Positions 9,351 to 56,490 of a stretch of 64,000 bases of DNA are shown piece by piece. Every line of letters begins with the position of its first letter. The first letter of the stretch is position 1. The position numbers and the translations under genes are program-made. This stretch comes from Octopus sinensis (taxonomy: Eukaryota): the NCBI RefSeq assembly GCF_006345805.1, contig NC_043014.1, forward strand, positions 5,394,001 through 5,458,000. The letters are read 5' to 3'. Under the pieces are notes generated by a model. The model had not been told where the DNA came from. It was given only the letters and a program-made list of their open reading frames with translations, and ran no database searches.

Positions 9351-10599
9351 AGTGCATGCGTTATAAAATATCTTTCTTTTTCTCCATCAATATATATAAT
9401 TGGATTTGCATGAAACAAGCGTACCGCATTATATCTGGAGATCATTGATGCTTCTTAGTACTATATATATATATATATATATATATATATATATATATAT
9501 ATATATATATATATATATTTATATTTATATATATGTACATATGATGACAAGGCAAATGCACAGCTACGTTCTCAAGCATTCAGCAACACACAGCTTACAC
9601 TTACATAAACACTAACATATATACACCACAATTCGTTCACACACGACTAAACATGACTCCTTTTAAGGGTCAATTTGTAATGAATATTTCCGTTATTTCA
9701 TATATAATTTTGCTTAACATCTTTTTTACTTGATTTATTCTTACAAATTCTAGGTGTGGCTGGTGGACAACTTTATAGCCATACTGGTGGCGGAAGTAAT
9801 CTCTTGTGTCTACCTAACGACCCCATTTGGGCCAATTATACGACAGGAGATACAAAAAGTGCTTACATTTATGGCAGTGAATATCAACTGGAAGTATACC
9901 CAACTAATAAATTCTTTTCTTTTCTAACGCTGAATCAATTTATGATCATAACGTTCCGTGCGCTGTCTGTTTGACACGACAACCTGCTGTTCTTATGATG
10001 TTACCAGCCAGGACAAAGTGTTACGCTGGTTGGACAGCTGAGTATTCAGGATATTTGATGTCCAGTCATTACGGGCATAAAGGCAAACTTGAATATGTGT
10101 GTGTGGACTATGCACCAGAAGCTGATCCAGCGGGTTACAGAAACGAAAACGGAGCTCTACTGTATTTCGTTCAAGCTGCTTGTGGTTCATTGCCATGTCC
10201 ACCGTATGTCAATGTTCGAGAATTAACCTGCATTGTGTGCAGTAAATATTGAATAGAAATTTACATTCGTTTCTATATGAAAATTTATGTCGGCGAATCA
10301 TAAAATATAATATAATAGAGCAACATATACGTTTCTTGTAATTGTGTTTCGCAGTATTTTATCCGACTAATATATGTCGTTAAATAAATTGCTGCTACAA
10401 GTTTTCAGAAAATATTCAAAACGAAACAACAGAGACGTCATAGAATGTGACAAATAGCTTAACAGAACGATGTAATCCTCAGGGAATGATTCTAGAATAC
10501 ATTGTATGAGGTTCAGTTTATTAAATTTAAATTTTGAAATATAATGATGATTCGTTTAAATGTGTGTTGTATTCCGTCTTAAAATGAAAACAATCCCCA

Positions 10600-11260
10600 A
10601 ATGAAACACCTCCGTACAAATATATCACCCTTTCATGATCAATCTTCAAAAAACACGATAAAAGCTTATAACTAACATCACTAAATCATGATGGGTTAGT
10701 AAAAAACAACTCCCAAACGTATCATTGTAACTACAATCGATGCGATGAAAGCTCTGCAATCCAATCACGGATATTACCAAATAAAGGATATTTGATATCC
10801 ACTGAAGAAATACCACAAAATGTTAACTACCTAACTACTTGTCAGGTGTTTCACGAAACTCTTTCGACAAGGGTACAAGTACACGTCCCACGATTAACTA
10901 TTTTCAACCTACATTCAAATATTCCCACTCTTCTACAAAAATCACACACACACACAACCTCGCGTCACATTACACACGCAGCCTCTCATCGTTCCCTGAA
11001 AACTGATGTGCCAAAATAAAATATGAAACCACCAAGAAATATGAGTACACTTCAGGAACAGCCTCAACCGAATCTACAGCAACACCACAAAACATCAAGT
11101 TCAACAAATTATCTCCGTCTGTAACATAAAACTATCAAACTCGCAGAAGAGGAACTTGCTTCGAGATACATGCATACAATAACTGTAACACACATAAACG
11201 ACTTAGTAAAGAAAGGAACACCACTTATAAAATATACATTAGGTGGAATCAGTGCAACAT
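10600..11260 (+). mobile_element. Possible highly decayed Penelope-like C-terminal fragment
   Basis: A/C-rich sequence with only faint similarity to the PLE endonuclease region; no clean motif. Confidence 0.25.
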
Positions 11261-12146
11261 GTTGAGTCTTTCACACTCTACCCAGCATGATTGCTCCTTG
11301 TATATGGGAGTTTGTAGAATGGCTGCCACATAAACGAAGGTATCCGTGGAAAGAGGGATCTGTGGGTGGCAGCACGTTTTTTGTCCGATTAATTGCGTGC
11401 CATAAGAATGCTCGATTGTGAAAAAGCTAGAGAAAAAGAATAATAATTAAGTAATATGAACGCACGAAATGCAAATTGACAAATGAATATATGGAAACAT
11501 TCAACATGGCGTTTCCAGTAAACAGTATTAGCGCTCAGTATTAGGCATAAGCAATTTTTAGGTTCGTTAAAATGTGCTAATGGCATATTTCAAACTCTAA
11601 AAGCAAATTCAGTGCAGAAAGCGGCAAAAACAGCATATCAGTCCAGTGCTGCTCCCTATCGAGTTTCAGTTCAACCGTCATCAAAAGAAAATACCGAAGT
11701 GGGGAATATCTGGACAAACTTAAAGCCATAGCTTTAACTTAAACATAGTCAACAACAACGAGTAAGTGACGCCATTAGAGCGCCAGGCTGGAGTCTGTCG
11801 TGAGTTACCTCCCTTCGGTATTTCTCTTTCATAAATTCTTCGCTAGAGGAGTTGACTTCAACCTTGTGCCCCAACAGTAACTGCGGTCGCTCGTGAGTGC
11901 CCGCATTTCCCCCGCATATTTGTGTGCGTGTGTGTGCGTGTGTCAATGTGTGTGTGTATGTTTGTGTCTGTGTGTGTATGTTAGTGTGTGTGTGTGTGTC
12001 AGTTTGTGTGTGTGTGTGTTTGTATATGTGTGTGTGTGTGTTTGTATGTGTGTGTGCGCCAGTGTGCGTGTATGTATTTGTTGGATAACTATCCGGAGAT
12101 AAAATATTCCCTATCAACGAAATCTGCAGTATTTCATGAACAACTG

Positions 12147-12318
12147 ATGAAATTTTTCAGAAAACTTTTCAAAAATTTTGATCAAAATTTCAAAAAAGTT
12201 TTTTAAATTTTGATGAAAATTTTCAAAAAAGTTTTTTAAAATTTTGATCAAAATTTTCAAAAAACTTTCCATAATTTTGATCAAAATTTTCAAAAAAGTT
12301 TTTTAAATTTTTGATGAA
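12147..12318. repeat. ~33-34 bp A/T-tract minisatellite (~5 units; aaaattttcaaaaaagttttttaaattttgatc)
   Basis: Directly visible periodicity. Confidence 0.85.
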
Positions 12319-12546
12319 GAGCTAGTAGAAACGTTAGCACGCCGGGCGAAATGCTTAGTGGTATTTCGTCTGCGGTTACGTTCTGTGTTCAAATTCCGCT
12401 GAGGTCGACTTTGCCTTTCATCATTTCGCGGTCGATAAATTAAGTACCAGTGAAACACTCGGGTTGATATAATCGACTTAATCCGCTTGTCTGTCCTTGT
12501 TTGTCCTCTGTGTGTTTAGCCCCTTGTGGGTAGTAAAGAAATAGAT
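12319..12546 (+). mobile_element. Cephalopod-type tRNA-related SINE (decayed minus-strand relatives at ~35935-36025 and ~51130-51222)
   Basis: gagct...gaaacgttagcacgccgggcgaaatgc...gttcaaattccgc.gaggtcgactttgcctttcatc, with a B-box-like GTTCAAATTCC. Confidence 0.7.
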
Positions 12547-54440: not shown

Positions 54441-54550
54441 TTCTAATCATTGTCTCCCCAATTCATTAATTCCCAGCCAAGAAATTCTCTCCCACATGGT
54501 TCACCAATTATTTTCTTTTAAACTACATTGTTTCCTTCGCAATTTCGCAG

Positions 54551-54625
54551 TACCCGGTCCTGGTTCCCTGTATACCCGGTGGGGTAGAACAAAATGTCCA
54601 CGTATTTCAAGTCTGGTATACGATG
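54551..54625 (+). CDS. Paralog 4, exon 3 (75 nt, PGPGSLYTRWGRTKCPRISSLVYD)
   Basis: CAG/GTTAGT splice sites; the Y-T-R-W-G-R-x-x-C-P motif is typical of the start of the short-chain-collagen C4 domain. Confidence 0.85.
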
Positions 54626-55990
54626 GTTAGTATATTTTGTTTCTAATCTCTCTCTCTATTTCTTTCTCTCTCTCTCTCTCACTTTCTCTTCCTCTCTCCT
54701 CCCTCCTTCTTTCTGATCTACACAAACGTTTGTCCTATTATAGTATATCACATTTTAAACGGCGATTATAGATTCTCTTGAGTTTACAAAAAACTACTTT
54801 CTCCGTTGAATTTATTTGGTCATAGCCGAAGTATAAATGGCGTCAAGAATGATCACACCAACAGGATATCATCGAAAGTACCCCCATGAACCCAACCACA
54901 GAATATAGTTACCGAAGGACTGTATGCATTAACTACGCACTACTCTACCACTTAATCACGCTAGTGCCTCATGGTAAGGCAATTCTGAGATTTCCAGTCA
55001 GAAGACACTATTTTCCACCACTTCCCCATCAACTTTTCTTTCTATAAACGAGATTTGTGTTTGCTTGAAATGCGATGGAACAGATTTTACCTGTGTATAA
55101 CCGAACCATTAACGGTTTTATTAAAGGTTTCCCGATTCAGCTTAAACTGAACTTTACAATCCTTTCTCCTCTCACTTTCCTTAAGACGTAAAATATCCCC
55201 AGTGATGCAGCAAATAAACCAACGTGACCATAACGTGTATCTTCACGTCACCTGTCCACGACTAGCCGAGAGTTTCAGCTACTCTGTGCAGGATGTTCTG
55301 TTAAATAACTTTTAACTACCCATCGACTGTCAATACTCTGCACCTCACCGTGTTCTTCTATTTTATATTGGCTAAAAATTCCTTGCATCGTTCTTCTATT
55401 TATCTCCGTTAAAATTTGAACAAAATCGTCTTTTTCCATTTTAGAGGAAATGCGTGACGTAACGGCCTTCCCTTCGCACTCTTTTGACATCTGCACACAA
55501 CCATCTACAGCCATGTATCTAGACATATTCACAAATATTACCTACACAAACCCGTTGGCGTACACCTACAACATATATACATATAAATCATAGACACGTA
55601 CAGTTCTTAACTCATACACAAACATTCATTGAGCAACACAGCTTACACTCGCATCGATACTAGTTTGTATACACAAAACCTACACACGTAAACATAGTGA
55701 ATGTTCAAACACATAGACACACGCACACGCGCACACACATAGACGCAAAGACACACACACACACAAACACATACACACACATAAACTCAATCACATACAC
55801 ATATAGACACACGCACACGCGCACACACATAGACAAAAACACACACACACACAAACTCGGATGTGTGTCTATTTATAATCGCAAATTTTAAAATTGAAAG
55901 TTCCTTTTCAAGGATTTCTTTTAATCCAAGTTTTTCTTATTTCACTTTACTTAATATTTTATTTATTTGATATTTTCTTACCAATTCTAG

Positions 55991-56490
55991 GTGTGGTTGG
56001 TGGAACAGCGCATAACGAAACAGGCGGCGGAAGTAATCTCTTATGTCTACCTAACGACCCCATTTGGGCCAATTACACTGGAGAAGTTACATTGTGGAGT
56101 CACATATATGGCAGTGAATATGAAACACGAAATTCCTATGCGAAAAAATATTTTTCTTTTGCTAACGCTGAATCACTTTATGATCACAACGTTCCGTGCG
56201 CTGTCTGTTTGACACGACAACCTGCTGTTGTTATGATGTTACCAGCCAGGACACAGTGTTACGCTGGTTGGACAGCTGAGTATTCGGGATATTTGATGAC
56301 CGAGTATCATAATCATAAAGGCAGACATGAATATGTGTGTGTGGACTATGCACCAGAAGCTGATCCAGCTGGTTACAGAAACGAAAATGGAGCTTTATTA
56401 TATTTTGTGAAGGGAATTTGTGGTTCATTGCCATGTCCACCGTATGTCTATGGTCGCATATTAACCTGCGTTGTGTGCAGTAAATATTGA
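55991..56490 (+). CDS. Paralog 4, terminal exon 4; short-chain collagen C4 / collagen IV NC1-like domain; spliced product 256 aa
   Basis: TAG acceptor; GGGSNLLCLP...VPCAVC...CYAGWTAEYSGYLM...YVCVD...CGSLPCPPY...LTCVVCSKY-stop. Exon lengths 144+52+75+500 = 771 nt, in frame. Confidence 0.9.

What the first reader, a model, noticed from the sequence alone, without database searches (positions are those of the whole stretch)
9754..56490. Tandem C4/NC1-like genes with CDR-like hypervariable loops on an invariant scaffold: candidate diversified recognition system
Seen: among the four exon 4 copies, differences cluster in about five short segments. HV1: QLYSHT / QYHAHS / SPYNET / TAHNET. HV2: TGDTKSAY / TEFEDVGN / PAAEGYGH / GEVTLWSH. 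HV3: QLEVYPTNKF / QLEHYPKKI / EIYSYGKKI / ETRNSYAKKY. HV4: SSHYG / TEYYG / TGFYN / TEYHN. HV5: QAA / QAV / EGK / KGI. The framework DNA is near-identical (43621-43686 matches 56197-56262), as are long stretches of the introns and flanks of copies 2-4. Copies 3 and 4 differ at about 30 of 165 residues by hand count, with few visible silent changes. The variable positions are rich in Y/H/W/F and charged residues. Known: spongin short-chain collagen-related C4 domains are homologous to collagen IV NC1 and widespread in invertebrates, mostly without known function. Inference: coding loops diverging faster than adjacent introns points to diversifying selection on a binding surface, as in immune or self/non-self receptors (compare molluscan C1qDC and FREP expansions).
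Basis: partly seen in the sequence, partly recalled or inferred. Interest (0 to 1): 0.88.

Follow-up and report, generated by a model that had tools for sequence, protein, structure and literature searches.

The report
Octopus mucus proteins with shuffled loops
These four copies belong to an octopus array of over 120 collagen-less C4 genes whose products share one frame but differ in short, apparently reshuffled loops, and because family members occur in octopus skin mucus they likely form a large inherited set of binding proteins, possibly for microbes.

Summary
Real, and larger than reported. The four last exons belong to an array of at least 123 copies on one contig (3.67-6.53 Mb), with at least 160 genome-wide. 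Of 153 stretches examined, 131 are intact; these give 124 distinct proteins. An intact gene encodes a ~256-aa protein: N-terminal membrane anchor, dibasic stalk, collagen IV NC1-fold domain, no collagen repeat. A homotrimer is predicted.

Diversity sits in HV1-5 and their pseudo-symmetric partners. Linkage decays within about 60 nt and identical loop DNA recurs on different backgrounds, which points to gene-conversion shuffling. Loop diversity at codon positions 1-2 (0.326) is 3.4 times framework synonymous diversity, above all 252 neutral simulations up to doubled loop mutation. Against this, loop dN/dS is only 1.0-1.2, and tree-based site tests fail their null under conversion.

Published O. 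vulgaris skin-mucus spectra hold about 56 matches from several paralogs, filed simply as collagen. Only window copy 4 is fully intact in this assembly. Best reading: a germline, conversion-shuffled repertoire of mucosal binding trimers, probably anti-microbial; no ligand is shown. My literature searches found no description of the array.

The parts
2593..2644 (+). Copy 1 exon 2 (first of two; stalk with KK-S). Its exon 1 lies about 0.7-0.8 kb upstream of the window
   Evidence: exon-1 hit at C18:5393171-5393308
5111..5162 (+). Copy 1 exon 2 duplicate (local tandem duplication 1788-3056 / 4310-5574)
7996..8070 (+). Copy 1 exon 3, with an in-frame TGA
9754..10252 (+). Copy 1 exon 4 (499 nt, 1-nt deletion near 9924): probable pseudogene or assembly error; an intact O. 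vulgaris protein (P0012) has the same HV1 and HV2
13398..23931 (.). 55-nt-unit satellite and 100-N gap lying where copy 2 exon 1 would be expected
24521..24571 (+). Copy 2 exon 2, 51 nt instead of 52 and diverged
26482..26556 (+). Copy 2 exon 3
27779..28275 (+). Copy 2 exon 4, open frame
32334..32477 (+). Copy 3 exon 1: short N-terminal tail, hydrophobic signal-anchor, start of stalk
38299..38350 (+). Copy 3 exon 2 (KK-S stalk); donor reads AT in the assembly
   Evidence: family exon 2-3 joints
42143..42217 (+). Copy 3 exon 3, start of the C4/NC1 domain
43418..43914 (+). Copy 3 exon 4; a 234-nt RNA-like contig with 1 difference covers HV1-HV3; poly(A) end near 44230
47941..48084 (+). Copy 4 exon 1 (signal-anchor)
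53307..53358 (+). Copy 4 exon 2
54551..54625 (+). Copy 4 exon 3
55991..56490 (+). Copy 4 exon 4; the one fully intact gene, 96% identical to O. vulgaris P0007. HV1 56005-56022, HV2 56080-56103, HV3 56122-56151, HV4 56299-56313, HV5 56410-56418

Best explanation
The window is four units of an octopus array of over 120 collagen-less C4/NC1-fold genes whose products are predicted to form membrane-anchored, likely shed trimers and likely act as an inherited repertoire of mucosal binding proteins, probably against microbes or parasites.

Shown: the array, the four-exon gene, the fold, loop-restricted diversity, fast linkage decay, splicing, and family peptides in O. vulgaris skin mucus.

Predicted: a homotrimer whose closest contacts are nearly invariant, with HV1 and HV2 of one chain abutting HV4, HV5 and HV3 of the next.

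Inferred: (1) tandem duplication makes copies; (2) gene conversion keeps the frame alike and swaps loop-sized pieces; (3) selection for new or retained specificities keeps the loops diverse; (4) the loops line three composite sites on the pole facing away from the membrane, the face collagen IV uses for trimer-trimer docking; (5) cleavage in the stalk releases trimers into mucus; (6) mixed trimers multiply the specificities.
For: Array: 150 scored matches of 281 candidates; 160 exact hits of a 27-nt motif, control 0; 150 exon-1 matches; 131 of 153 stretches intact, 124 distinct DNA = 124 distinct proteins; 104 distinct on C18 alone, with the same statistics.

Fold and architecture: Foldseek E 3.9e-6 to NC1, VIA Z 7.6, rmsd 4.1, 148 aligned, hhalign E 1.2e-4. 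No Gly-X-Y run and a 19-residue hydrophobic stretch in 17 of 17 octopod proteins.

Shuffling: r2 falls 0.14, 0.06, 0.04, 0.02 with distance (permutation p 0.0005); 116 of 124 distinct HV1-4 combinations; pairs sharing one loop's DNA share another in only 10-25%; 23 of 124 look mosaic.

Excess: loop p12 0.326 vs far 4-fold 0.096; 0 of 120, 0 of 72 and 0 of 60 neutral simulations at x1-x2 loop mutation reach it; top-6 entropy 2.87 vs at most 2.42.

Trimer: ipSAE 0.93, best control 0.00, runs agree in at least 89% of contacts, pLDDT at least 87; calibration 21 of 30 pairs vs 0 of 23 single chains. Best-contact residues have mean entropy 0.28.

Expression: spliced, poly(A)-ended contigs; about 56 of 3,654 held mucus spectrum rows, 5 variants of one stretch; two members in ink with 4 and 1 spectra. 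A short-chain collagen C4 transcript is listed with C1qDC, apextrin and fucolectin among mussel gill transcripts.
Against: No ligand or challenge data. Loop dN/dS is 1.02 (0.75-1.42) or 1.20 (0.89-1.63); only HV2 at kappa 1.8 excludes 1. The tree test with variable synonymous rate gave 79, below all 12 null values of 82-249. With tripled loop mutation, 4 of 36 neutral runs reach 0.326, though none with the observed local synonymous level. Variable sites are not significantly enriched at the predicted interface (17/23 vs 84/142, p 0.25). Linkage decay at framework synonymous sites alone is weak (p 0.056). Several copies keep their loops across species (96-100% to O. vulgaris, 94-97% to O. bimaculoides), so this is not a runaway race at every copy. 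Some mucus spectra begin at the second Lys of KK (up to 4 of 25), so KK is not an obligatory cut site. Scraped mucus also held cell proteins. The trimer pass may come from likeness to solved NC1 trimers. Mosaics could partly be assembly chimeras.
Confidence: 0.55

Rival explanations
1. An assembly or recognition code: the loops set which chains trimerise or which trimers dock head to head, as NC1 does in collagen IV, building the mucus network or a self/non-self or cell-cell label.
For: HV1-HV4 align to or next to the NC1 segments holding E40, A74-D78 and M93, which lie at or switch the trimer-trimer interface (PMC4878091; bioRxiv 10.64898/2026.02.20.707065). 17 of 23 variable sites touch a neighbouring chain. 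The chains carry a membrane anchor.
Against: The best-resolved inter-chain contacts are nearly invariant. The hexamer was not modelled. A pairing code should keep loops co-adapted, yet loops recombine freely.
Confidence: 0.17
2. Dosage amplification of an abundant structural mucus protein; the loops are merely unconstrained and sit in mutation-prone or conversion-poor spots.
For: Loop dN/dS is about 1. 4-fold diversity rises towards the loops, 0.07 to 0.20. Peptides are abundant in mucus. Equivalent loops vary in both pseudo-symmetric halves, as tolerant surface loops would.
Against: Neutral simulations matched for linkage, and for rare-variant spectrum in the star-like runs, never reach the observed diversity up to doubled mutation. 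Cys and Pro are scarcer in the loops (0.002, 0.018) than in drifted loops (0.006-0.021, 0.029-0.036). All 124 distinct genes give distinct proteins.
Confidence: 0.16
3. Binders of non-microbial ligands at the body surface (prey or predator toxins, odorants, metals through His-rich loops) or carriers of chemical signals in mucus and ink.
For: His makes up 0.19 of residues at the variable sites. The protein is found in arm-skin mucus and ink.
Against: No pocket or metal site was tested, and no sucker or gland expression data were available.
Confidence: 0.1

Closest known systems
Spongin short-chain collagen-related proteins ('short-chain collagen C4-like')
   Same: Same C-terminal domain (1,476 relatives from sponge to amphioxus), ten cysteines, no HSQ motif (definition from PMC5395295 passages).
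   Different: No Gly-X-Y repeat; signal-anchor plus dibasic stalk; more than 120 tandem copies with loop-restricted diversity.
Collagen IV NC1 domain
   Same: Fold, internal two-fold repeat, predicted trimer.
   Different: No triple helix, 10 Cys, no HSQ. The segments that are conserved docking elements in NC1 align to the variable loops here.
Bivalve C1qDC and gastropod FREP expansions (recalled; listing only)
   Same: Lineage-specific multigene expansion of a multimeric head domain, and presence at mucosal surfaces.
   Different: Unrelated scaffold. Binding is proven for those and untested here. No somatic diversification was tested.
Cephalopod protocadherin, C2H2 and S-crystallin arrays (PMC9068888 passages)
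   Same: Multi-megabase tandem array of whole genes, with duplication and gene conversion invoked.
   Different: That paper's main text never mentions collagen. This array is denser (about 120 genes in under 3 Mb) and its products are found in mucus.

Membership tests
Spongin short-chain collagens | C-terminal NC1-like domain of two C4 repeats | tested here: met
   internal repeat probability 87.7, E 3.8e-7
Spongin short-chain collagens | Short Gly-X-Y collagenous domain | tested here: not met
   No run in 17 of 17 octopod proteins; 7-19 triplets in 3 coral/amphioxus controls. Filed as spongin-related, not as spongin.
Spongin short-chain collagens | Ten cysteines (7 shared with NC1, 3 own) and no HSQ motif | tested here: met
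   Ten Cys and no HSQ in the P0007 domain; count only, positions not mapped one by one
Collagen IV | Long triple helix and HSQ motifs | tested here: not met
   true collagen IV NC1 exons lie on other contigs; PF01413 does not hit these proteins
Collagen IV | NC1 trimer | tested here: met
   Prediction only: ipSAE 0.93 vs best control 0.00; may reflect likeness to solved trimers
Collagen IV | Head-to-head hexamer | not tested
Dscam / clustered-protocadherin type (variable exons spliced to shared exons) | Many variable exons share constant exons | tested here: not met
   Exon-1 hits are about as many as exon-4 hits and interleave with them; copies 3 and 4 each have their own four exons
Somatically diversified receptors (FREP, VLR) | Transcript variants absent from the individual's germline | not testable with these tools
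   Only contigs of unmatched individuals were available
Germline pattern-recognition expansions (C1qDC-like; works-like claim) | Binding to microbial ligands | not testable with these tools
   No assay; none found in the searches
Germline pattern-recognition expansions (C1qDC-like; works-like claim) | Diversifying selection on the binding loops | tested here: inconclusive
   Tree-free excess over neutral simulations, but dN/dS about 1 and site tests unusable
ApeC-domain proteins | PF16977 homology | tested here: inconclusive
   Atlas score 0.79, a lead only; no Pfam hit; hhalign against one ApeC exon 0.25%, a weak test

The most novel reading that the evidence does not exclude
Octopus has turned the collagen IV docking face into an antibody-like germline repertoire: over 120 chains with conversion-shuffled loops co-assemble into mixed trimers whose binding sites are built from two different chains, giving up to ~10^4 pairwise sites shed into mucus.
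Probability: 0.25. Interest if true: 0.92.

Novelty: new variant of a known kind. Interest (0 to 1): 0.74.

Why it matters
Large diversified immune or mucosal receptor families are known from snails and bivalves (recalled), and my searches turned up none on this scaffold in cephalopods. This array supplies over 120 testable candidates in one locus, already present in public mucus proteomics under the misleading label collagen. It would give a first specific function to spongin-related C4 domains, whose role outside sponges was not settled in the passages read. It is also a dense natural case of selection acting against gene conversion. The small disulfide-bonded trimer with tolerant loops could be a binding scaffold.

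Tried and rejected
Tree-based site models (own GY94 code, matching IQ-TREE M0 at -14149): large LRTs, but the parametric optimiser stalled at its start value (omega 2.0) and M7 hit the grid edge. The non-parametric versions gave 365 and 79 against null ranges of 37-215 and 82-249; FUBAR-like counts were 16 vs 20-51 in the nulls. Set aside as unusable under conversion.

Raw comparison of codon positions 1-2 with local 4-fold sites (bootstrap): biased upward in neutral runs (ratio 1.2-1.6; 13 of 120 reach the observed 1.92), so only the simulation-calibrated level is used. The synonymous gradient towards the loops is reached by 8 of 60 uniform-rate runs: weak.

Intron and 3'UTR comparison: confounded by two flank classes; among 82 pairs with both flanks under 5%, loop pN 0.129, loop pS 0.114, flanks 0.02-0.03.

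Sequence searches of Pfam and PDB found nothing significant. The ApeC lead was not supported. No informative local repeats around exon 4. No RNA holder on record was listed and tissues are coded; copy 4 expression was not obtained. Brain-atlas supplements had no hit, one file unreadable. Absence of the N-terminal peptide in mucus is uninformative (too short). Earlier-findings look-ups were empty. The tree groups the array with Octopus proteins only, Argonauta outside, but support is low (43-80).
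Full report
Observation. The motifs and the 66-nt identity are present. 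The four last exons lie at 9754-10252, 27779-28275, 43418-43914 and 55991-56490. Full-length relatives define a four-exon gene of about 256 aa: exon 1 with a short tail and hydrophobic anchor, exon 2 with a KK-S stalk, exons 3-4 with the domain. Only copy 4 is fully intact in the assembly; copies 1-3 carry lesions that may be real or assembly errors. The closest named proteins are labelled Octopus 'short-chain collagen C4-like'. Those labelled O. sinensis may come from this same genome and are not counted as independent.

Scale. The window sits at C18:5394001-5458000. The protein search scored 150 of 281 candidates, 114 of them on C18. A 27-nt motif has 160 exact hits; of the 100 listed, 9 are further C18 places, giving at least 123 on C18 between 3.67 and 6.53 Mb. 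Exon 1 gives 150 of 204 candidates. I fetched all 150 places plus copy 1 and obtained 153 stretches, two of them partial extra hits: 131 intact, 22 set aside for stops, frameshifts, truncation or no AG acceptor at the expected place. The sample favours intact copies. The 131 reduce to 124 distinct DNA sequences, all different as proteins. C18 alone has 104 distinct ones and the same statistics.

Protein. The AlphaFold2 model (pLDDT 88) matches collagen IV NC1. Profile alignment gives E 1.2e-4 at probability 55%, and shows an internal two-fold repeat in which HV1 pairs with HV4, HV3 with HV5, and HV2 with a second variable loop at columns 132-137. None of 17 octopod proteins has Gly-X-Y repeats. 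A homotrimer scores 0.93 against a best control of 0.00; the mark was reached by 21 of 30 solved pairs and 0 of 23 single chains, for animals by 7 of 16, and the pass may come from memory of NC1. One face of the predicted interface holds HV1 and HV2, the other HV3, HV4 and HV5; residue 128 touches 230, and 103 touches 194-195. The best contacts are nearly invariant, but variable sites are not enriched at the interface overall (p 0.25). By alignment HV1 falls at alpha1 42-47 beside E40, HV2 at 69-75 running into the chloride nest, HV3 at 82-90 before M93, and HV4 at 144-149. Passages of PMC4878091 and bioRxiv 10.64898/2026.02.20.707065 place R76, M93 and their partners at the trimer-trimer interface, with E40 as a partner of R76. 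That the loops form one membrane-distal face is therefore an inference of moderate strength.

Diversity. In 121 copies other than the window's, loop pN is 0.32-0.33 and framework pN 0.05; framework pS is 0.13-0.14 but loop pS is 0.29-0.32, so loop dN/dS is 1.0-1.2. Pathway counting inflates pS in multiply changed codons; 4-fold sites give 0.20 in loops and 0.07 far away. Linkage decays within about 60 nt, each of HV1-4 has 63-70 protein variants, 116 of 124 combinations are distinct, and identical loop DNA recurs on unlike backgrounds. Because such conversion breaks tree methods, I simulated neutral loops under conversion matched to the linkage profile. Tree-based tests then gave false signals as large as or larger than the data for the variable-rate test, and up to 215 against 365 for the constant-rate test. 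The tree-free measure held: 0.326 observed, reached by 0 of 252 runs at x1-x2 loop mutation, including star-like genealogies, and by 4 of 36 at x3; top-6 entropy 2.87 was never reached. These simulations simplify the history and fix the loop positions in advance. Selection for loop diversity is likely but not proven. Near-identical counterparts in O. vulgaris (5 of 5 full-length array-type proteins at 96-100%) and O. bimaculoides (2 at 94-97%, 2 at about 82%) show that loop sets are real and can be retained.

Expression. In four runs guessed to be RNA, contigs cover exons and 3' end, join exons 2-3 and 3-4, and end in poly(A); one matches copy 3 with 1 difference in 234 nt. Tissues are not given. 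In the held part of the skin-mucus spectrum table of PMC10138644 (3,654 rows of 5,937 spectra; the file is cut, and the protein table was not seen) about 56 rows are family peptides, with five variants of the stalk-domain junction, one of the copy 3/4 class. The paper's text speaks only of collagen; extracts were detergent-free 40,000 g supernatants of scraped arm mucus. The ink proteome PMC10142993 lists two members with 4 and 1 spectra.

Mechanism. Duplication supplies whole genes; conversion homogenises the frame and moves loop-sized tracts; selection keeps loop variety; chains trimerise through a conserved core, probably in mixtures; the stalk is probably cut and the heads enter mucus, where composite loop sites bind foreign surfaces. 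The array, the pattern and the mucus location are shown. The trimer is predicted. Shedding, mixing and the ligand are inferred. Rivals are an assembly or self code, neutral dosage amplification, and non-microbial ligands.

Literature. Seven searches on the family, array or gene ids found no description of this array. Seen as passages only: PMC5395295, PMC9068888, PMC4878091, the bioRxiv NC1 paper, PMC6626399, PMC13093298, PMC4581086. Passages and supplements: PMC10142993, PMC10138644. Supplements only: PMC9712504. Other titles were seen as listings. The 2006 family paper and C1qDC/FREP biology are recalled. The library lacks most subscription papers, and unread supplements of cephalopod genome papers may list the expansion.

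Verdict. A real, large and apparently undescribed octopus array: known domain, new architecture and use. New variant of a known kind; interest 0.74.

Noticed in passing
window 38299 and 42207-42217: RNA-like contigs in two runs, and a loose end in a third, join the end of exon 3 back to the start of exon 2: a circular RNA or a paralog with repeated exons 2-3.
   Followed up: no
window 13398-23931: 10.4-kb satellite of a 55-nt GT-rich unit followed by a 100-N gap, interrupting the array where copy 2 exon 1 is missing.
   Followed up: partly
window 63103-63672 (-): 190-aa open frame with a YVDD motif, probably a retroelement reverse-transcriptase fragment (motif recalled); no Pfam hit.
   Followed up: partly
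G000:C18:3.67-6.05 Mb: The array switches strand in blocks (near 4.03, 4.74, 5.16 and 5.8 Mb), suggesting large inverted duplications; three pairs of identical exons lie on C18.
   Followed up: no
G000:C18 about 5.43-5.91 Mb: Copies 3 and 4 belong to a small subfamily with a distinct exon 1 (18 hits at 83-100%, the rest about 60%) that has an O. bimaculoides sister protein.
   Followed up: partly
L158-L159 (G000:C2:43.34 Mb): Only one ApeC-domain locus was found in this genome; its O. bimaculoides relative is a 1,086-aa multidomain protein.
   Followed up: no
L150-L157 (C19, C9): Three collagen IV NC1 loci, two on opposite strands on C19 and one on C9.
   Followed up: no
PMC10138644 supplement: Some paralogs have Cys in the stalk (SC instead of SL after KK), which could link chains by disulfide.
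   Followed up: no
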